From the IMG/VR virus record IMGVR_UViG_3300042484_002006: 64,000 nucleotides of DNA. One strand, written 5' to 3'. The notes beneath the pieces were generated by a model, which was not told where the DNA came from, made no database searches, and saw only the letters and a program-made list of their open reading frames with translations. This document shows positions 18,595 to 26,275 of this stretch, piece by piece. The first letter of the stretch is position 1; each line of letters opens with the position of its first letter. The stretch is from a virus. The position numbers were made by a program, and so were the translations under genes.

Positions 18595-18653
18595 ATTTTT
18601 CTACCTTTATTTACGTTTATATGAATATATAGTAGCATAAAAATATCTTTGAG

Positions 18654-19847
18654 TCAAGACATTAGCACTTGATCTTCAATATTTCGTATATGGCGAAGTA
18701 ATGAATAATGACTAATTGCAGAATCTTCTTGCATAAAAGATGCCAAGGCCTCCAAGTAAGTAAAACCCTTAGGTGGCCAAACTCCAGCAAAGGCATAGAA
18801 GGCATCGTAATCTATAGGAGTTTCAGGAATATGACATTCACATTCACAGTCTTCACTGTTTATGTATTCATCTTGTTCATCATCATACTCACTGCATGAA
18901 TCGCAGCAATCTAGATTTCTGTGCGTTTGACTGCTTTGATCTATGCTTTGTAAATATTCACCAATCAAGTTAGTTCGAGCATTACTGAAGTCTGAATAAA
19001 AACGAGGATTTTGAGAATTTTTTACCCAGTTTATATTACTAATTTCATGAAGATCAATTGATTCCCAAGCTTTAAATAAAGCTGCAACATAACTATCACT
19101 TATGTAATAATTTTCTTTACCTATTTCATGAGTAAAAGGTACGGCAAATTTTTCTAAAATAGTATTCTCTGGTTTATATTGATAAAAAGAATAGTACTTT
19201 GCAACAGTTTCAGTCAAATCTAAATTAGTTCCAGAGTTCCATACCCAATCATAAGCAGACTGAATAACGCCAGCAAAATCTTTAGAATACTTTTCTACAT
19301 CATCCATATCAGAAAAGAATGGACGACACAAATCGCCATTAGAATAGAAATTAGGAATTGGAACCATGAACATTTCTTGATCAGGATGCATCAAAGAGGT
19401 TTTCATAAAATACATGCGGACATCAGTGGTGTAATACTCAATCTGATTTTCATTTTTTATTTCATGATATTTAACAATATATAACTGCCAAGGAAGTGGG
19501 ATGCGATAAATGCTTTCTTCGTCACAATCATAGTCTATGTTATCAACTTGTTTGTAAATAATGGAAACATTTTCATAGCAAGGCGGTTTTTCAAAAACTA
19601 AATATTTTTTAGTAGCATATAGAAGCCCTGGGGGCATGATGCCAGTATCTTTTACGATGTAATTATTCTTTGTAAATGAAGAAACAAAATCGGTTACTGG
19701 AACAACTCGATCAAGTTCTCCAGCAATTTGCTGTAAATCATTGGAATAATTATTGTAAACAAAAGAACTTATATAAGAAGAATCTTGATTGTAATTAACT
19801 TTAACAGAAACATTATTAGCATTTGAAGTTAGTATAGAAATAGCCAT
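18654..19847 (-). CDS. prokaryotic E2 (Prok-E2_D-like) protein with a C-terminal Cys cluster
   Basis: YRIPLPWQLYIV...VPIPNFYSNGDLC; CCDSC...CECEC. Confidence 0.6.
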   Translation of the reverse strand: MAISILTSNANNVSVKVNYNQDSSYISSFVYNNYSNDLQQIAGELDRVVPVTDFVSSFTKNNYIVKDTGIMPPGLLYATKKYLVFEKPPCYENVSIIYKQVDNIDYDCDEESIYRIPLPWQLYIVKYHEIKNENQIEYYTTDVRMYFMKTSLMHPDQEMFMVPIPNFYSNGDLCRPFFSDMDDVEKYSKDFAGVIQSAYDWVWNSGTNLDLTETVAKYYSFYQYKPENTILEKFAVPFTHEIGKENYYISDSYVAALFKAWESIDLHEISNINWVKNSQNPRFYSDFSNARTNLIGEYLQSIDQSSQTHRNLDCCDSCSEYDDEQDEYINSEDCECECHIPETPIDYDAFYAFAGVWPPKGFTYLEALASFMQEDSAISHYSLLRHIRNIEDQVLMS

Positions 19848-21328
19848 TAGACAAGGGACTCCTGAACACTAGAGTTAGAAGAAGTATAGGCAGTCTTTGC
19901 AAAAAGATCATTCTTGAAACTGATATAAGATTCAAAAGATTCATAGGGAGCACCGATTTTACTTTTAAGAAAATCATAATAATCAGTGGTAACAATTTTT
20001 TGAATATCTACAACTGAAAATTTACTGGTGACATAATCAAGTAGATAGATTTTATTTTTTGATGGATTATTCATATAGTGATCTAATACTTCATGAAGAG
20101 ATGAAAGATCGAAATAATGCCTTAATCTAAAAGAACTACTCAAATTTGTAGAATCAATATTATAAACAATGACAGGAAAAGATTCATATAAAAAGAAAGA
20201 TTGATCTAATTTAGAATTTTGTGCGAGAATATCTTGAACAGTTGAAGAAAAGTTTTCGTAAGAAGAAACAGTAGTTATCATAGAGTTTTTCTTTATTATG
20301 TTAACAAGTTCTTCAAAACTATAAGTACACTTATGATAACGAATATTACTAGGAAATTCTGAAATTTCTTTATAAAATTCTAAGGTTTCATCAAGACTAA
20401 ATGTAGATAATTGAGTAAAGAAATAATTAAATACAGAACCGTACGAACGAGTAGATGCCTGGAAGTTAAAATTTTCTAACTGTCTAGTAGTCATCTTAGG
20501 ATATTTTTTTTTCAAAAGAATTTTATCAGGATTAAGAAATTTAGATAAAATAGGATGATCTTCTGAAGGTTGATACTGTTGAAAGAATCTATAAAGATTT
20601 GGAGTTAAATCTAAATTCCATCCACCATTCATAAATTCATTAAAAACAATAGAATAGATATAACGAATATCTTTTTTATCTATGTTTTCAACAGAAAGTT
20701 GACTAAGACTGGAAGCAAAACAAATTCTACCATCCATGTAAGAGTTAGGAAGAAATGAAGGAGAATAAACATCTTCCATGGAAGAAAGAGATTTATGAGA
20801 AAACATAATTTTTACGTCACTCAAATCATGAGGATTCAAAATTGTAAGAGTCCAAGGAATCCAAACTTTATATGGATTCATCTTTTTGCGATTATCAGAA
20901 TACCTATTCTTAGTGATGTACAAATCTACTTCAACTTGAAAAGGAGGACGCTCTATAAAATAATAGCCTTCAGGAGTAATATAGCGAGTAGCTATTGGAA
21001 GTAAAGAGGGATCTACTTTTGGATAAATCATTTGCTTATGAGCATAAACAACATCTTCAGTTTTTCCAGAAAAGATAGAAGAAACATCTACTGTCAATAA
21101 TGTAGGAACTTGTTTAGTATCATACCAATATCCACCAAGAAAATCATTAACAACTTGATCATCAGTAGAAGATTGAGCTAAGGAAAGAGGATAGTTAGGA
21201 TAGTTGTAATAAGAACTTGTTAATGCAGAATGAACTACGGTTGAAGCAGAATCTAAATTAACATTAATAAGATAAGAACTAGTTGCTTCCCTAGGATCAA
21301 TGTTAGTAAATTTTCCAGATAAAGACAT
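19847..21328 (-). CDS. prokaryotic E2 (Prok-E2_D-like) protein
   Basis: YKVWIPWTLTIL...LPNSYMDGRICF. Confidence 0.6.
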   Translation of the reverse strand: MSLSGKFTNIDPREATSSYLINVNLDSASTVVHSALTSSYYNYPNYPLSLAQSSTDDQVVNDFLGGYWYDTKQVPTLLTVDVSSIFSGKTEDVVYAHKQMIYPKVDPSLLPIATRYITPEGYYFIERPPFQVEVDLYITKNRYSDNRKKMNPYKVWIPWTLTILNPHDLSDVKIMFSHKSLSSMEDVYSPSFLPNSYMDGRICFASSLSQLSVENIDKKDIRYIYSIVFNEFMNGGWNLDLTPNLYRFFQQYQPSEDHPILSKFLNPDKILLKKKYPKMTTRQLENFNFQASTRSYGSVFNYFFTQLSTFSLDETLEFYKEISEFPSNIRYHKCTYSFEELVNIIKKNSMITTVSSYENFSSTVQDILAQNSKLDQSFFLYESFPVIVYNIDSTNLSSSFRLRHYFDLSSLHEVLDHYMNNPSKNKIYLLDYVTSKFSVVDIQKIVTTDYYDFLKSKIGAPYESFESYISFKNDLFAKTAYTSSNSSVQESLV

Positions 21329-21331
21329 TAT

Positions 21332-22516
21332 TTAAGCTCCAATAAGAGTTTGTATATAGCTAACTTTGTTAACAGAAATTTTTTCCTGTTCTATGTTTTT
21401 ATCTTCAAGCGTATGCGCATCGTAGCACGATATAAACTCTTCAAAGATATTATTAGCTTCTAGGAGAACTTCGTCGTAGTTAGATTCTTTGTCATAGTTT
21501 AAAGTAGTTAACGTAGCGTTATCTGTTATGTTTTGTATAACAAAAGAATGATCTCCAGTTAAAGTTGCGCTATATCGCATTTGAATATTGATTATGTTTT
21601 CACTATTCAAAGGAGTAACTGTAGTTGTTTTAATAATAGTTGAAAGAGCAACATAGTGAGGGCAGTGCTTATCTATTCTGCCTAAATGAAAAGATGAACA
21701 TAAAGTCATTGATGATTTAGAAGAAAGAACAGGGGAAGAACATAGCGCAATGTTTGGGGGAACATTAGCAAATGCATAATCTGCAGAAGTAATTTTGGTA
21801 TCATTAGCATGATATGTTAGGTACTGACAAGGAGCAGGAGATATAACTTTCTTTTTGTCTTTAACTTCAGAAGATGATACAGTGTTGAAGAAAGTATTAA
21901 TGCCGAATTTCCAAGCATATACTGGACTAGAAGTGTGTGGATCTACTGAAGGAGAAAGGCAGGAAACTACATGGCCACTAGGAGAATATCCGGTACAACC
22001 AGGGTGTTCCTTGAGTTTTCCTGTAGGAGAAACTATATGATTCTTGTAAACATTAAAGAATGTTTTAGCGACTGAAGTAATATAGATATTCTCAGGAATA
22101 TTTAAGTATACCTCACCGGAAGCAAAGTAGTCATAAACAAATTCTCCTTCTTCACAACCAGTTTGTCCAGGATACTTTGCTGCATGAATTGGATTAAGCC
22201 AAAAACGAGTAGTATAGTCTGTGTCTGGAGTTGGTAAATCAAAATAGTATTGAGAAGTATCTAAATCAAAAATAACAGGAACATTATTAGATTCACTCTC
22301 TGAAGAATGATTATTATTAGGTATAATATTAAGATCGTGCATTTCTGACTCCGATGTATTAGTTAAGTTAAGTGCAGGGTTAGATTCAAATATATCTAAT
22401 GGAGTTTTAATTTTTAGTTTTTTATAAGCTTTTTCTAATACATTAGAAAATTCTTCTGGAACAATCATCTTAGTCAGAAGTTCTTCAAGAGTAATTGGTT
22501 TATTTATGTTAGACAT
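21332..22516 (-). CDS. Cys/His-containing hypothetical protein
   Basis: 394 aa; several Cys in residues ~120-290. Confidence 0.7.
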   Translation of the reverse strand: MSNINKPITLEELLTKMIVPEEFSNVLEKAYKKLKIKTPLDIFESNPALNLTNTSESEMHDLNIIPNNNHSSESESNNVPVIFDLDTSQYYFDLPTPDTDYTTRFWLNPIHAAKYPGQTGCEEGEFVYDYFASGEVYLNIPENIYITSVAKTFFNVYKNHIVSPTGKLKEHPGCTGYSPSGHVVSCLSPSVDPHTSSPVYAWKFGINTFFNTVSSSEVKDKKKVISPAPCQYLTYHANDTKITSADYAFANVPPNIALCSSPVLSSKSSMTLCSSFHLGRIDKHCPHYVALSTIIKTTTVTPLNSENIINIQMRYSATLTGDHSFVIQNITDNATLTTLNYDKESNYDEVLLEANNIFEEFISCYDAHTLEDKNIEQEKISVNKVSYIQTLIGA

Positions 22517-22517
22517 A

Positions 22518-23081
22518 TTAATACCAAGTGCTTATAGTTTTGTTATATAGATCTTCTCTGGCCTTAGAAGTTAGATGAAGAAGTTCTTCAGCTTGTTTCT
22601 CGAGTTGATTAATATAATCAACATAATATTTAACATCTTTTTCTAAGTCATTAACTTGCTCAATAAGAGAAGAAATAAGCTTAGATGCTTGAGTGGTATC
22701 TATTGTTAGATTAATAGAATCTAAAATAGTTTGTGAAAGATCTGTTTTTTTTAAAATCACATAGGCACCAGTAGCAGCAATAATAATTAGATCATCACGA
22801 AGAGCATTGTAATACTTTTCGTAAAGTGACGTTGGGATATTAGAATAATATTCTTTTCTAAAGTCTGTTTTAGAACCTAAGTATATATATATTTCTTGAT
22901 ATATATCTGGATTAATATTTAGGCTTAAAAGAGATAAAATAGATTGTTTCCGAGATTCGTCTAAACTTGCTGCAACAACATCAACTGTATCAACAGTAAT
23001 TTTCGTGATGTATGGAGAATCAAAAAGTTTATTAAAAACTTCATTCAGATGTTCCAAAGATTGGAACTTGTTTATGATCAT
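22518..23081 (-). CDS. hypothetical protein with a C-terminal coiled coil
   Basis: heptad pattern. Confidence 0.7.
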   Translation of the reverse strand: MIINKFQSLEHLNEVFNKLFDSPYITKITVDTVDVVAASLDESRKQSILSLLSLNINPDIYQEIYIYLGSKTDFRKEYYSNIPTSLYEKYYNALRDDLIIIAATGAYVILKKTDLSQTILDSINLTIDTTQASKLISSLIEQVNDLEKDVKYYVDYINQLEKQAEELLHLTSKAREDLYNKTISTWY

Positions 23082-23272
23082 TATTATTTACCTCAACTGA
23101 ATAGACTTCTATTTTTCCTGTCTTTATAAATTCTTGAAAAGACGTACTAGAAATAAATAAAGATGTAACATCAGGATATATAGATTGAACAATAGGATAT
23201 ATGCTAGATAGATAAGATAAATTATGAAGTAATTCTAAAGTAGAATTATCAACTAGTAATAAACAAGATAGA

Positions 23273-23662
23273 TCAGGAGTCTGTATTAGACAGCTCTGAG
23301 TCAACCATGTCTGCAACGGCTGTGGCAAGATTTTGATCTTGGTCAGCCAGGATTCCCTTTGATGCATGTTGCATAACCTCAAGCATTTCTCTGCGAGACT
23401 TGGAAACATCGTTATGGAAAGCAGCACGGGCTTCATCTGTAGAATATGCTATTTGAGCAACTAAGGCTTCCATAAATACAGCCTGCTCTCCATAACCGAG
23501 AATAAGAGAAGCTATTTGTTTTTCAATAGATTCAATAGATTTTTCTACTGCTTGAATTCTTTGCTCAACTTGAGCATGAATTCCTGTCATTACTTCTTGA
23601 AAAAGATTAGTAATAAACTCTGCAGTAACTGAGTCAAGTGATGGAATATTTTCTTCTGTCAT
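23273..23662 (-). CDS. hypothetical coiled-coil protein
   Basis: ATGA-coupled. Confidence 0.7.
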   Translation of the reverse strand: MTEENIPSLDSVTAEFITNLFQEVMTGIHAQVEQRIQAVEKSIESIEKQIASLILGYGEQAVFMEALVAQIAYSTDEARAAFHNDVSKSRREMLEVMQHASKGILADQDQNLATAVADMVDSELSNTDS

Positions 23663-24309
23663 TGTTCATACCAGTCTTGATTGTTGGTAACATATGATAC
23701 CATAGAAAGATCCATTAAGTATGAGATAGAGCAAATATCTTGACGACTAACTTTAATCTGGTCAACAGACAGAGGAGTCTTCATATCAGGAATAAATGCA
23801 CCACTGTCGGACTTACGCGCAGCAAAATGTCCACACTTCCAAACAAATGAAGTAGTATCTACTGAATCAGATGTTTGCCAGTAATGAGCTTTAAAGATTC
23901 GAGAAATAGGCTTGCCATCAAGAGTTGTTCCACCGTATGAAACAAAACCTTCATTAGTAGGAACGCCCATTCTTTCATTAGCGGGATAGTTTATAGAAGC
24001 TGTTTGATTCGCTATTGAACGAAGATAGGCAGCAAAGTCAATAGTATCAACAAAGACTGCAGTACTGCTTTGAAGTTTACCTTCAGAAGAAGTCTTACCA
24101 ATATCAATCTTCATTTTAAGTGCTTCATTCCAAGGACGAATAGCTAAGAAGCCACTCTGTGTCTTTGATCTAAACCACTTTTTATAAAGATCTTGCTGGT
24201 AGTCTTTAGTATCAGTTTTAACTGGATCCTTTATTCCTTCCAAAGAAGAAAGAAATTCTTCTGCATTATCAAATGTATCGCTCATAATATTCCTATCTAT
24301 TATTGCCAA
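23659..24309 (-). CDS. hypothetical protein
   Basis: 216 aa; overlaps the end of the AAA gene. Confidence 0.75.
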   Translation of the reverse strand: MAIIDRNIMSDTFDNAEEFLSSLEGIKDPVKTDTKDYQQDLYKKWFRSKTQSGFLAIRPWNEALKMKIDIGKTSSEGKLQSSTAVFVDTIDFAAYLRSIANQTASINYPANERMGVPTNEGFVSYGGTTLDGKPISRIFKAHYWQTSDSVDTTSFVWKCGHFAARKSDSGAFIPDMKTPLSVDQIKVSRQDICSISYLMDLSMVSYVTNNQDWYEQ

Positions 24310-25913
24310 ATAAGTTTGGACTCTGATTTTACAGGAGACTTTTTACCTAGTATCATTTTAGCATCTTCCATCTGAGATGTCGAGGCCCAATCCCACTGCT
24401 CAAGAGCATACTGATACATGGACATAACCATGTCATTGTGCTTGAGCCAAATGGTATTCTTGGTACGAGGAATGAAATGTAGAATATCTTTAGTTTCAAT
24501 TGGTCTGAAAGATTCAGAAGTTACATAAAACTTTGTTTCACGAATCAAAGAAACAATTTCTGCACCAGTCATATATACAGCAGCGTCAGCTAATGCATCA
24601 TAATTATAATTGTGGTCAGTATCAATCTTGCTCAAATGAATATGAAAGATATGCTTGCGTTCTTCAAATGAAGGAAGGCCAACAAACATAATTTTGTCGA
24701 AACGATCTGCGCGCAACATCTCAGGGCGCAAAGCTTCAAGTTGATTAGCTGCACATAGTAAGAATGTTTCTTCAGGAAGCTCTTGAAGACCAGTAAGGAA
24801 TTCACCATGAACACGATCAGTGGTTCCGCCATCTACATGAGAAGAACTTGATCCACCAGAAAGATCACGACCAAACTCGTCAATCCACACACATAGTGGA
24901 GACATGAGTTTGATTTGCTTAAAGACAGCACGCATGTTAGCTTCTGATTGACCAATAAAGGAATTCATAACTTGGCTAATACCAGTGCGAGCCAAGTCTA
25001 GTCCAAGTTCATTGGCAGTGGCTTGACAGATAGCTGACTTACCAGTGCCAGGAATTCCGACCATAAGCATTCTGCGAATAGGAGTAATGCCGAAAGACTT
25101 TGCGCGTTCTGGATCATTCCACAAAACTGCTGTTCTACGAATAATGTCTTTGATATTATCAAGACCACCAATATCTGCAAAGCTCATTGTAGGCTTAATA
25201 ATTTCAAGAATGCCATTCTTTTTAATAGTTGACATTTTTTGATCATAAACAAACTTAGGATTAAGTTGTCCAGTATTAACAACGGATGTCAAACAAAGAT
25301 CAATGAATTGAGATTCAGTAAGACCGATTCCAGCATTAACAAGTTCTTTAATGTTGTCTTGTTCAATGAGACGGTCATGTGCAGAAGCATTGATATGCGT
25401 AGCAATAGAATGAAGTTCAGAAAGACCAGGAATAAGATCTTCTATAACAGTAAAGTACTGAGCATATTCTTCAGATACAGCTTGTGAACTCAAGAAAATT
25501 AATTGAAGAGGCATTAAAGAAAGATCATCATTCCAGAAAGCTTTACGATATGATGATTTAAAGTGGGCAATGTATGGAGACATCGGCATGATTGCCGCGT
25601 TAAGATCGCCAATAACATTAATGAAATAAGTAGCTGGCTTAGTAAACGTGGGAGCATTTTCCAAAAGATAGGACATAGCAATCGATGGATCATAAGTGAC
25701 CACTAATTCAGGTCCACCAGTCATTTCAGCCAAAGGATTTGGAACTAGTACGCTCTTCCATTGGCCTTCGCAGTACTTAGAAAATCCAGATAGAAAATCA
25801 ATAATATAATAATCTCTATCAATTGTAGAAGTAATAACATCTACAATTCTGGAAGAGTCAGAATCTTTAATCCAAATATTTGGATAGTTGAGTTTAATAG
25901 AATCAAATAACAT
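24300..25913 (-). CDS. AAA+ ATPase (Ycf46/SpoVK/Cdc48-like)
   Basis: GIPGTGKS, VWIDE, AANQ, RADRFD; degenerate N-terminal module; start set at ATG 25913. Confidence 0.9.
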   Translation of the reverse strand: MLFDSIKLNYPNIWIKDSDSSRIVDVITSTIDRDYYIIDFLSGFSKYCEGQWKSVLVPNPLAEMTGGPELVVTYDPSIAMSYLLENAPTFTKPATYFINVIGDLNAAIMPMSPYIAHFKSSYRKAFWNDDLSLMPLQLIFLSSQAVSEEYAQYFTVIEDLIPGLSELHSIATHINASAHDRLIEQDNIKELVNAGIGLTESQFIDLCLTSVVNTGQLNPKFVYDQKMSTIKKNGILEIIKPTMSFADIGGLDNIKDIIRRTAVLWNDPERAKSFGITPIRRMLMVGIPGTGKSAICQATANELGLDLARTGISQVMNSFIGQSEANMRAVFKQIKLMSPLCVWIDEFGRDLSGGSSSSHVDGGTTDRVHGEFLTGLQELPEETFLLCAANQLEALRPEMLRADRFDKIMFVGLPSFEERKHIFHIHLSKIDTDHNYNYDALADAAVYMTGAEIVSLIRETKFYVTSESFRPIETKDILHFIPRTKNTIWLKHNDMVMSMYQYALEQWDWASTSQMEDAKMILGKKSPVKSESKLIWQ

Positions 25914-25955
25914 ATATATCACCAAACGTACTAGGTGTTGCCTTTTCAAAAAATA

Positions 25956-26007
25956 GGGGGAGGATCGATACATTTATCTAATGAAGAATGTACTCAGATC
26001 CTCCCCC
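25956..26007 (-). terminator. intrinsic terminator-like hairpin after the Ubl gene
   Basis: GGGGGAGGATC...GATCCTCCCCC followed by a T-rich run on the - strand. Confidence 0.65.
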
Positions 26008-26020
26008 GTAGGTGTGCTAA

Positions 26021-26275
26021 TCAGCCCTTTTCGCCTGCACGGCGGTGGAACTCAATGTTCTGGCCGGGCTGAATAACAGCGTTCTCATCAAGTTTGTCCT
26101 TGCCACAGTAGGCAATAGCATCATTGGGAATGCCCCAGATCTTAGCGAACTGTTGACGAACTTCATTGATGGACTTTCCAGCAATGTTGCTCGGCTGATT
26201 GTAAACTCCATAGCGGAGATTAGCCATTCCATTAGCGCGATTCGGCTGAGCTGCCGATGAACTTGTATTTTCCAT
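26021..26275 (-). CDS. ubiquitin-like modifier (Prok-Ub/PRTRC protein C-like)
   Basis: 84 aa ending IEFHRRAGEKG; directly after E1. Confidence 0.8.
   Translation of the reverse strand: MENTSSSAAQPNRANGMANLRYGVYNQPSNIAGKSINEVRQQFAKIWGIPNDAIAYCGKDKLDENAVIQPGQNIEFHRRAGEKG

What the first reader, a model, noticed from the sequence alone, without database searches (positions are those of the whole stretch)
18654..25913. Two more E2-like paralogs and a Cdc48-like AAA+ ATPase extend the Ubl cluster
Seen: 19847..21328 (IPW...LPNSYMDGRIC) and 18654..19847 (LPW...IPNFYSNGDLC) repeat the P-N-x-x-x-x-G-x-x-C pattern of the first E2. An intact AAA+ ATPase follows the Ubl gene, after a terminator-like hairpin. 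Established: in eukaryotes p97/Cdc48 extracts ubiquitylated substrates. Inference: a multi-E2 tag-and-extract or tag-and-degrade pathway in a phage, more elaborate than the usual single-E2 prokaryotic operon.
Basis: partly seen in the sequence, partly recalled or inferred. Interest (0 to 1): 0.75.

Follow-up and report, generated by a model that had tools for sequence, protein, structure and literature searches.

The report
Two extra phage E2-like enzymes
An uncultured phage of about 200 kb carries its own ubiquitin-like tagging genes and, beside them, two more fast-evolving enzymes of the ubiquitin-carrier (E2) type in one gap-free gene string with a protein-unfolding motor. I found no description of this layout in phages, and whether the motor acts on tagged proteins is not shown.

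Summary
ORFs 19847-21328 (E2A, 493 aa) and 18654-19847 (E2B, 397 aa) are paralogs (hhalign 98.9%). Across 46 sequences they keep an invariant Asn, a Cys 8 residues later, and ExPP, PW and WNxD motifs. Two independent AlphaFold models rank E2/UEV folds first (Z up to 4.9). The nearest annotated ESM Atlas clusters are Prok-E2_D (TM 0.55-0.62). No Pfam, NCBIfam, PHROG or PADLOC model reaches its cut-off.

The ATPase (true start 25913, 537 aa) is an intact single-module classical AAA protein, closest to the D2 module of VAT/Cdc48/p97. It is not a two-ring Cdc48.

A conserved terminator hairpin separates the Ubl gene from it. From the AAA gene to E2B, eight genes run without a gap, one of them a previously uncalled overlapping ORF.

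The whole block is collinear in all related contigs that are long enough to show it (170-270 kb records among them). That is lineage synteny only. The same AAA family occurs in unrelated phages with no Ubl genes annotated or detected within 8 kb.

Multi-E2 is supported. "Tag-and-extract/degrade" stays inference, with one lead: a sister subclade encodes an HslV/proteasome-beta-like protein.

This scan has already reported the same system on other, related phage DNA.

The parts
18654..19847 (-). E2B, 397 aa. The E2-like core is about residues 49-276, with Asn166 and Cys174 (codon 19326-19328). The N- and C-terminal flanks are hypervariable.
   Evidence: AF2 domain model pLDDT 86.7. The top 26 VIA rows are all E2/UEV. 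Atlas TM 0.62 and 0.55 to Prok-E2_D-bearing clusters. dN/dS 0.13.
19847..21328 (-). E2A, 493 aa. The E2-like core is about residues 88-322, with Asn195 and Cys203 (codon 20720-20722). In the model the extra N- and C-terminal parts form a separate domain.
   Evidence: AF2 pLDDT 84. About 40 of the top 50 VIA rows are E2/UEV, Z 3.0-4.9. A weak Prok-E2_D HMM hit falls on the active-site stretch of an ortholog. dN/dS 0.14.
21332..22516 (-). p394, unknown. Fast-evolving, with four conserved Cys in its second half. Its end overlaps or abuts its neighbours.
   Evidence: No Pfam, NCBIfam, PHROG, PADLOC or Atlas match.
22518..23081 (-). p187, unknown and fast-evolving, with a predicted coiled-coil-like C-terminus.
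23041..23367 (-). Conserved overlapping ORF of about 95-108 aa (from Met24 of the 131-aa ORF). It fills the apparent 191-nt gap between p129 and p187.
   Evidence: The peptide (..LPQPL.TWL..VLFVD..YLS.IYP..) is conserved in all related loci. The gene calls shown for L001, L002 and L041 do not include it.
23273..23662 (-). p129, unknown and helical. Its start overlaps the end of p216 by 4 nt.
23659..24309 (-). p216, unknown and highly conserved (58-79% identity to orthologs). The likely start is the ATG at 24285.
   Evidence: No PDB or Pfam match.
24300..25913 (-). Single-module classical AAA ATPase, 537 aa. It has an N-terminal region of about 235 residues, Walker A GIPGTGKS, pore loop NSFIGQSE, Walker B VWIDEF, and a C-terminal Hb-Trp-X tail.
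25948..26007 (-). Terminator-like hairpin (GGGGGAGGATC..GATCCTCCCCC plus T-run) between the Ubl and AAA genes.
   Evidence: Conserved with compensatory changes in relatives.
26021..26275 (-). Ubl, 84 aa, ending ..RRAGEKG. It lies outside the finding and is the presumed cargo.
   Evidence: The C-terminal Gly is invariant in 24 sequences.
18629..18657 (-). Conserved sigma-70-like promoter with an extended -10 element (TTGACT, 17 nt, TG-n-TACTAT) directly after E2B. It marks the start of the next unit (MerR-like, SSB, UDG).

Best explanation
E2A and E2B are two very divergent Ubl-carrier (E2-type) enzymes of the prokaryotic E2 kind, nearest to Prok-E2_D. They belong to a phage-encoded ubiquitin-like conjugation system.

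Shown here:
- Both have a UBC-like core.
- Both keep an invariant Asn-x7-Cys active-site signature. Across the family the conserved core sits between hypervariable flanks.
- Both are under purifying selection.
- They are the last genes of a gap-free eight-gene string: AAA, p216, p129, an overlapping small ORF, p187, p394, E2A, E2B. This string follows the E2Zn-JAB-E1-Ubl operon after a conserved terminator.

Inferred:
- The single ThiF-type E1 adenylates the Ubl, which already ends in Gly.
- The E1 passes the Ubl to the Cys of any of three E2 paralogs: the conserved, zinc-finger-rich 659-aa protein, E2A and E2B.
- The variable flanks of E2A and E2B choose different targets, so each works as an E2/E3 hybrid. 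No E3 was recognised.
- The JAB peptidase trims or recycles the tag.

More weakly inferred (about 1 in 3): the co-transcribed AAA unfoldase, perhaps with p216 and p129 as cofactors, acts on the tagged proteins.
For: - Paralogy.
- Invariant columns in 46 sequences: E, PP, PW, N, C, N-x-D, with N-to-C spacing of 8 as in HPN..C of UBC enzymes.
- Two independent AF2 models (pLDDT 84 and 87) have top structural rows that are almost only E2/UEV chains.
- Atlas structure search gives TM 0.62/0.57 and 0.55 to clusters carrying Prok-E2_D.
- The Prok-E2_D HMM weakly hits exactly the N..C stretch of an ortholog.
- The E2A/E2B profile also finds the N-domain of the 659-aa protein, and an E2-like domain directly upstream of JAB-E1-ThiS in the distant contig L047.
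- dN/dS is 0.13-0.14.
- The tandem pair is kept in all relatives, including the most distant ones with E1 at 53-57% identity.
- Gene string without gaps.
- AAA: intact motifs; nearest solved sequences are VAT/Cdc48/p97 D2, E 1e-55 to 1e-46.
Against: - Structural Z-scores are modest (at most 4.9), and Foldseek found nothing at E<=1e-3.
- No curated HMM (UQ_con, Prok-E2_B/D, NCBIfam, PADLOC) reaches its cut-off.
- The His of HPN is absent, and so is the conserved His after the Cys that Iyer et al. describe for type 6d E2s (PMC1779556).
- A conserved terminator lies between the Ubl and AAA genes.
- AAA homologs occur in unrelated phages with no Ubl genes annotated or detected within 8 kb.
- Co-occurrence is confined to one phage lineage in which everything is collinear.
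Confidence: 0.5

Rival explanations
1. The E2 paralogs are real Ubl carriers, but the AAA ATPase (with p216 and p129) is functionally independent of the Ubl system. It would be a general phage early or remodelling ATPase that only shares the transcription unit and the lineage's fixed gene order.
For: The same AAA family (phrog_8638, 3e-65) is found in Agrobacterium phage JP1, Rhodobacter RcTiptonus and many mycobacteriophages. In JP1 and RcTiptonus it sits between lysis and replication genes, with no Ubl, E1 or E2 annotated or detected within 8 kb. There is a terminator between the Ubl and AAA genes. L046 has three genes inserted between them. SSB and UDG are just as tightly co-inherited.
Against: The AAA gene and E2A/E2B lie in one gap-free string, kept even in the most distant relatives. 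The AAA module is closest to the unfoldases that process Ubl-tagged proteins in archaea and eukaryotes (PMC4895103).
Confidence: 0.3
2. E2A and E2B are counter-defence decoys. These fast-evolving E2-like proteins would intercept the host's own Ubl~E1 thioesters (Bil or type II CBASS-type defence) rather than carry the phage Ubl.
For: They evolve much faster than E1, Ubl and AAA: mean pairwise identity 0.24-0.29 against 0.63-0.67 for Ubl and p216. Their flanks are hypervariable. Bacterial Ubl conjugation is an anti-phage mechanism (PMC10097602, PMC10557695).
Against: The phage has its own conserved E1 and Ubl a few kb away. The E2A/E2B profile is related to the operon's own E2-type protein. Gene-wide dN/dS is 0.13-0.14, so there is no sign of gene-wide positive selection. 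No similarity to the PADLOC E2 or Cap2 models.
Confidence: 0.1
3. E2A and E2B have a UBC-like shape but are not thioester carriers. They would be non-catalytic Ubl-binding adaptors of the UEV type, or enzymes of another chemistry that use the conserved Cys.
For: Z-scores are low. UEV and FTS chains are among the structural hits. No E2 HMM passes. The His of HPN is missing.
Against: Cys and Asn are invariant, at the canonical spacing, in 46 sequences from two paralog groups that otherwise share only 13-21% identity with each other. UEV-type proteins characteristically lack the Cys (general knowledge).
Confidence: 0.1

Closest known systems
Prokaryotic E2 family Prok-E2_D (PF14460), the E2 of operon type 6d of Iyer, Burroughs and Aravind 2006 (separate Ubl, JAB, E1 and E2 genes; PMC1779556)
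   Same: A stand-alone E2-fold domain with a conserved Cys, encoded near a ThiF-type E1, a JAB peptidase and a small Ubl ending in Gly. It is the nearest annotated structural neighbour of the E2B core (TM 0.55-0.62).
   Different: - The HMM scores only 11.6 bits against a 25-bit cut-off.
- There is no conserved His after the Cys.
- The Asn 8 residues before the Cys is kept, as in eukaryotic UBCs.
- The proteins are 400-500 aa with hypervariable flanks.
- There are two tandem copies plus a third paralog.
- They are encoded by a phage and sit in a separate unit with an AAA ATPase.
PRTRC cassette of plasmids and integrative elements (NCBIfam TIGR03736 PRTRC_ThiF, TIGR03735 PRTRC_A)
   Same: These are the best NCBIfam matches of the neighbouring E1 and JAB proteins.
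   Different: The scores are far below the cut-offs (29 against 145 bits; 19 against 102 bits). No PRTRC model matches E2A, E2B or the 659-aa protein. There is no ParB, and the context is a phage.
Bacterial anti-phage Ubl conjugation: Bil (BilABCD) and type II CBASS Cap2/Cap3 (PMC10557695, PMC10097602)
   Same: The E1, E2, JAB and Ubl logic in a prokaryotic setting. Weak PADLOC E1-E2 hits fall on the E1.
   Different: Those are host defence systems with one E2 (fused to E1 in Cap2). Here the kit is a conserved part of a phage genome, with three E2 paralogs and an adjacent AAA ATPase. No PADLOC model hits the E2 paralogs.
Archaeal SAMP/UbaA/JAMM/Cdc48/20S pathway (Fu et al. 2016, PMC4895103)
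   Same: A Ubl, a ThiF-type E1, a JAMM/JAB enzyme and a Cdc48-type AAA ATPase acting together. It is the nearest functional precedent for 'tag, unfold, degrade' outside eukaryotes.
   Different: No E2 takes part in sampylation (my own knowledge). The archaeal genes are dispersed cellular genes. Here no proteasome gene is present in the window. Only a sister subclade has an HslV/proteasome-beta-like gene.
Cdc48/p97/VAT (NCBIfam TIGR01243)
   Same: The best-scoring solved sequences and the best NCBIfam family for the AAA module. An aromatic pore loop and the second region of homology are present.
   Different: One AAA module instead of D1 plus D2. 114 bits against a cut-off of 803. No CDC48_N domain was detected. 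The tail is Hb-Trp-X rather than HbYX.
Phage AAA-ATPase family phrog_8638 (for example Agrobacterium phage JP1 gp048, Rhodobacter phage RcTiptonus gp60)
   Same: Homologous from about residue 156 to the end, 32-33% identity.
   Different: In JP1 and RcTiptonus no Ubl, E1 or E2 gene is annotated or detected within 8 kb. Their downstream neighbours show no similarity to p216.

Membership tests
E2 / UBC superfamily | UBC alpha/beta core: N-terminal helix, four-stranded antiparallel sheet, active-site loop, crossover helix and C-terminal helices | tested here: met
   Two AF2 models (pLDDT 84 and 86.7) show this order of elements. About 40 of 50 and 26 of 26 top VIA rows are E2/UEV chains: Z 3.0-4.9, 120-139 residues aligned, rmsd 4-5 A. 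Atlas TM is 0.55-0.62 to Prok-E2_D clusters. The Z-scores are modest, and Foldseek alone found nothing.
E2 / UBC superfamily | Catalytic Cys in the loop between strand 4 and the crossover helix | tested here: met
   Cys is invariant in 46 sequences. In both models it lies in the loop after the last strand and before a short helix and the long helix. No residue-level superposition on a solved E2 was available.
E2 / UBC superfamily | HPN motif with Asn 8 residues before the Cys | tested here: inconclusive
   The Asn is invariant at exactly -8. Pro is common but not invariant in E2B orthologs. His is absent.
E2 / UBC superfamily | Thioester formation with a Ubl, dependent on E1 and ATP | not testable with these tools
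   Biochemical assay needed.
Pfam Prok-E2_D (PF14460) | HMM score at or above the gathering cut-off (25 bits) | tested here: not met
   The window proteins gave no match at E<=0.1 against Pfam. Six-frame search of four related phage records gave one hit of 11.6 bits (E 0.026), on the N..C stretch of an E2A ortholog.
Pfam Prok-E2_D (PF14460) | Conserved His C-terminal to the catalytic Cys (Iyer et al. 2006, type 6d) | tested here: not met
   No conserved His appears in the E2A/E2B alignment. The 659-aa paralog does have C-L-Y-H.
Pfam UQ_con (PF00179) and Prok-E2_B (PF14461) | HMM match | tested here: not met
   No match at E<=1 in four related phage records, and none in the window proteins.
Classical AAA clade (PF00004) | AAA module with Walker A, Walker B, sensor-1, Arg fingers (SRH) and AAA_lid_3 | tested here: met
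   PF00004 at 6e-23 (82 bits against a 21-bit cut-off). AAA_lid_3 scores 20 bits, below its cut-off. The motifs are conserved in 22 orthologs.
Cdc48/p97/VAT (TIGR01243) | Two tandem AAA modules (D1, D2) | tested here: not met
   There is one AAA stretch, residues about 280-480 of 537. TIGR01243 scores 114 bits against a cut-off of 803.
Cdc48/p97/VAT (TIGR01243) | N-terminal CDC48_N / double-psi barrel domain | tested here: not met
   No Pfam match to the first 235 residues. Homologs of that region were found only inside this phage group. Its fold was not modelled.
Proteasome-activating ATPases | C-terminal HbYX motif that docks on a peptidase ring | tested here: inconclusive
   The window protein ends in I-W-Q. 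A Trp or Phe within the last 1-5 residues is kept in all 22 orthologs, but its position varies and Tyr is never used.

The most novel reading that the evidence does not exclude
This clade of phages of about 200 kb runs its own ubiquitin-proteasome-like pathway. One E1 and one Ubl feed three E2/E3-hybrid carriers, whose hypervariable flanks pick host proteins, perhaps defence proteins. The co-transcribed single-ring AAA unfoldase, with its C-terminal Hb-Trp-X tail, then hands the tagged proteins to an HslV-type peptidase. That peptidase is phage-encoded in the sister subclade and would be the host's own in this one. It would be the first tag-unfold-degrade system of a virus of bacteria.
Probability: 0.15. 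Interest if true: 0.9.

Novelty: new variant of a known kind. Interest (0 to 1): 0.6.

Why it matters
Ubiquitin-like conjugation in bacteria has so far been studied as a host weapon against phages (Bil, type II CBASS), or as cassettes of unknown function on mobile elements. Here a large uncultured phage clade keeps a complete kit as part of its conserved core, and has expanded the carrier step to three paralogs. The E2A/E2B family alone has at least 1469 representatives at 50% identity.

Two of the paralogs form an unannotated family that no curated model recognises. They combine an invariant active site with hypervariable flanks. If they are charged by the phage E1, they would be a natural set of E2s with built-in target choice, and a handle on what a phage tags during infection.

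The gap-free link to an AAA unfoldase, and the HslV-like gene in the sister subclade, make the question 'do bacterial viruses use tag-and-degrade?' directly testable with recombinant proteins.

Tried and rejected
- Foldseek against the PDB gave no match at E<=1e-3 for either model.
- HMMER profiles of the family and of p216 against PDB sequences gave nothing relevant.
- Pfam, PHROGs, NCBIfam and PADLOC gave no family for E2A, E2B, p394, p187 or p216.
- tblastn of E2A against 50,697 GenBank phage records found no match. E1 gave one weak match and JAB three. blastn of the region found no match.
- I tried to bridge to named E2 families by sequence. The exhaustive profile search and the word-indexed profile search list only the best 150 or 120 hits, and all of them were in-family proteins without annotation.
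- Complex prediction with E1, Ubl and the E2B core returned 'no answer' (score 0.00). This is no evidence either way.
- The proteins downstream of the AAA gene in phages JP1 and RcTiptonus show no similarity to p216.
- The Atlas feature search gave only a weak 'Whirly' lead for p216 (0.82, below the usable level) and nothing for p394.
- A search with the AAA N-terminal region found only in-clade proteins.
- No whole genome is held for the window.
- An HslV-like gene was sought in the window and in two 92%-complete close relatives and is absent there.
- Literature searches found no paper on a phage-encoded E1/E2/JAB/Ubl kit or on these E2 paralogs.

Full report
ANATOMY

All genes of the region lie on the minus strand. 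Read in the direction of transcription, the genes are:
- an M50-like small protein
- a 659-aa protein with many CxxC pairs ('E2Zn')
- a 553-aa JAB-domain protein
- a 252-aa ThiF-type E1
- an 84-aa Ubl ending ..RRAGEKG (26021-26275)
- the AAA ATPase
- p216, p129, p187 and p394
- E2A (19847-21328) and E2B (18654-19847)
- a MerR-like protein, SSB and UDG

THE TWO ORFS ARE PARALOGS WITH AN E2-TYPE ACTIVE-SITE SIGNATURE

BLASTP gives E 1e-10. Profiles built from 23 orthologs each align with 98.9% probability, E 2e-17, over 214 columns.

I aligned the core of both groups, 46 sequences that share only 13-21% identity between the groups. Nine columns are invariant: Glu and Pro-Pro (ExPP), Pro-Trp, an Asn, a Cys exactly 8 residues later, and Asn-x-Asp after the next long helix. 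The Asn-to-Cys spacing is that of HPN..C in UBC enzymes (established knowledge). The His is missing.

The literal pattern PN-x4-G-x2-C occurs only at these two places in the six-frame translation of the window; shuffles give a mean of 0.24.

The 659-aa protein does not carry the literal pattern. Its N-domain is distantly related: hhalign 77% to E2B. The E2A/E2B profile also picks up its orthologs in three relatives.

FOLD

The full-length E2A model has pLDDT 84 and the E2B core model 86.7. Both have the order helix, antiparallel sheet, long loop holding Asn and Cys, short helix, long helix, further helices.

An all-against-all structural search over 48,161 PDB representatives put E2 or UEV chains in about 40 of the top 50 rows for E2A (Z 3.0-4.9). 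For E2B they filled all of the top 26 rows (Z 3.1-4.8; 120-139 residues aligned; rmsd 4-5 A). These Z values are modest, and Foldseek found nothing at E<=1e-3. The argument therefore rests on three things: one fold dominates the lists, the two models agree, and the motif fits.

The ESM Atlas search adds an independent point. After the family's own clusters, the nearest neighbours are:
- a 250-aa cluster with TM 0.62/0.57, 169 residues aligned, in which 11% of members carry Prok-E2_D
- a cluster in which 85% of members carry Prok-E2_D, TM 0.55

The Prok-E2_D HMM itself gives only 11.6 bits, but on exactly the N..C stretch of an E2A ortholog. UQ_con and Prok-E2_B give nothing.

I therefore read E2A and E2B as highly divergent E2-fold proteins nearest to Prok-E2_D. 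They are not members of that Pfam family.

EVOLUTION

The family is large and unannotated:
- 117 clusters at 90% identity for E2A alone
- 1469 representatives at 50% identity with E<=1e-3 for the core profile

All are from metagenomes, and where taxa are known they are viral. None is in GenBank phage records.

The flanks outside the core are essentially unconserved. Mean pairwise identity is 0.24 for E2A, 0.29 for E2B and 0.26 for p394. It is 0.67 for Ubl and 0.63 for p216. Against the window, E1 orthologs keep 70-91% identity and AAA orthologs 52-75%.

Between the window and its closest relative, dN/dS is 0.14 for E2A and 0.13 for E2B. It is 0.06 for AAA and 0.08 for E1. These are constrained, real genes that evolve two to three times faster than the core enzymes. 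There is no gene-wide positive selection.

THE ATPASE

The first ATG of the long ORF (25973) lies in the loop of the hairpin. Orthologs start at the Met corresponding to 25913, giving 537 aa.

The protein has one AAA module (PF00004, 6e-23) and an AAA lid. The following are conserved in all 22 orthologs:
- Walker A
- pore loop (..NSFIGQSE..)
- Walker B
- sensor-1
- Arg fingers

The best solved relatives by sequence are the D2 modules of Thermoplasma VAT, yeast Cdc48 and human p97 (E 1e-55 to 1e-46), followed by PAN. TIGR01243 scores 114 bits against a cut-off of 803.

It is therefore Cdc48-like in its motor module only. There is no second ring and no detectable CDC48_N domain. The C-terminus keeps an aromatic residue within the last five positions (I-W-Q in the window), which is reminiscent of, but not the same as, HbYX.

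OPERON STRUCTURE

After the Ubl stop there is a GC-rich 11-bp hairpin followed by a T-run (25948-26007; -38.8 kcal/mol, z -3.6). Relatives keep the hairpin through compensatory changes, and most keep the T-run. This is a conserved terminator or attenuator between the Ubl operon and the AAA gene.

The apparent 191-nt gap between p129 and p187 is not a gap. A peptide read in another frame is conserved in all relatives and defines an uncalled ORF of about 95-108 aa (23041-23367) that overlaps the end of p129.

From AAA to E2B, eight genes therefore follow each other with overlaps or a few bases between them.

Directly after E2B lies a strongly conserved sigma-70-like promoter with an extended -10 element, placed before the MerR-like gene.

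The two E2 paralogs are thus tied most tightly to the ATPase string, not to the Ubl operon.

CO-INHERITANCE

The following contigs show the same order wherever they are long enough:
- 34 IMG/VR loci, whose records include several of 170-268 kb and CheckV completeness of 85-100% for the four looked up
- several ENA, JGI and NCBI contigs
- phage-like contigs binned into MAGs

This includes the most distant relatives (E1 53-57% and AAA 36% identical). SSB and UDG are equally constant, so this is lineage synteny and not independent evidence of a functional link.

In L046 three unknown genes sit between the Ubl and AAA genes, while AAA-to-E2 stays contiguous.

In the distant contig L047 a 1013-aa protein with an E2A/B-like domain precedes JAB, E1 and a ThiS-like Ubl. 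No AAA gene follows within the 2 kb left on that contig.

Outside the lineage, homologs of the ATPase (phrog_8638; 32-33% identity from residue 156 onward) lie in Agrobacterium phage JP1, Rhodobacter phages and many mycobacteriophages. In JP1 and RcTiptonus no Ubl, E1 or E2 gene is annotated or detected within 8 kb.

A LEAD TOWARDS DEGRADATION

About half of the related loci form a sister subclade that encodes a 220-230-aa protein starting M-T-T-I. It has a Proteasome-family match above the cut-off (23.6-30.5 bits against 22.4) and lies 2-3 kb downstream of UDG. It is absent from the window and from two 92%-complete close relatives. The pathway cannot depend on a phage-encoded peptidase in this phage.

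COMPARISON WITH WHAT IS KNOWN

The neighbouring E1 and JAB are nearest to the PRTRC cassette models, far below cut-off. The overall kit corresponds to operon type 6d of Iyer et al. 2006 (PMC1779556).

Bil and type II CBASS are host-side analogues (PMC10557695, PMC10097602).

The archaeal SAMP pathway, which needs UbaA, a JAMM enzyme, Cdc48-type ATPases and 20S proteasomes (PMC4895103), is the closest functional precedent for the proposed coupling to an unfoldase.

I found no paper describing a phage-encoded kit of this kind or these E2 paralogs.

Earlier notes of this scan describe the same system in related phages of about 200 kb and reach similar readings. They are not independent evidence.

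VERDICT

- The multi-E2 reading is supported at the level of fold, motif and conservation.
- The ATPase is intact, sits in the same string as the two E2 paralogs, and is always present in the lineage.
- Its action on Ubl-tagged proteins is not shown and has a serious rival.

This is a new variant of a known kind of system.

Noticed in passing
window 23041-23367 (-): An ORF of about 95-108 aa overlaps the 3' end of p129 in another frame and fills the 'gap' before p187. Its peptide (..LPQPL.TWL..VLFVD..YLS.IYP..) is conserved in all related loci, yet the gene calls shown for L001, L002 and L041 do not include it. A frameshift fusion with p129 was not excluded.
   Followed up: partly
L040:17519-18181, L041:17065-17727, L002:16869-17561: A sister subclade of the phage group encodes an HslV/proteasome-beta-like protein. 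It starts M-T-T-I and scores 23.6-30.5 bits on PF00227 against a 22.4-bit cut-off. The gene lies downstream of the UDG/KTSC genes. It is absent from the window and from two 92%-complete close relatives.
   Followed up: partly
L048:11795-14689: In a distant relative the AAA gene carries an in-frame intein with a LAGLIDADG endonuclease, inserted at the Walker A region (Intein_splicing 3e-12).
   Followed up: partly
window 25913-25973 (-): The first ATG of the long AAA ORF lies inside the loop of the terminator hairpin. Orthologs show the true start is the Met at 25913, so automatic calls that use the longest ORF add 20 false residues.
   Followed up: yes
window 18595-18657 (-) and the same place in relatives: A strongly conserved sigma-70-like promoter (TTGACT, 17 nt, TG-n-TACTAT) followed by a conserved ..ATATAAAC..AAAGGTAG.. 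leader lies before the MerR-like gene. It suggests that host RNA polymerase transcribes the MerR-like/SSB/UDG unit.
   Followed up: partly
window 24300-24311 (-); orthologs in the loci: The AAA proteins end with an aromatic residue within the last five positions (I-W-Q, A-W-K, S-W-K-I and similar). This resembles the HbYX or HslU-type tails that dock on peptidase rings.
   Followed up: partly
L023 and L025 (both on IMGVR_UViG_3300042868_009074, 267,766 bp): One IMG/VR record holds two diverged copies of the whole block about 215 kb apart, and two HslV-like genes. It is probably a chimeric assembly of two related phages rather than a duplication.
   Followed up: no
L045:7393-7638 and the Ubl of L038: Two relatives have a Ubl with two extra residues after the terminal Gly (..GEKGSK, ..GEKGNI), which would need trimming, presumably by the JAB peptidase. 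All the others end at the Gly. In L045 an HNH endonuclease gene follows the Ubl.
   Followed up: no
window 21332-22516 (-): p394, just upstream of E2A, evolves as fast as the E2 paralogs but keeps four Cys and a few aromatic residues in its second half. It may be a small metal-binding module and is worth testing as an E3-like partner.
   Followed up: no
window 26017-26232 (-): The 71-aa ORF listed here is in a different frame from the Ubl gene (26021-26275) and is most likely spurious.
   Followed up: yes
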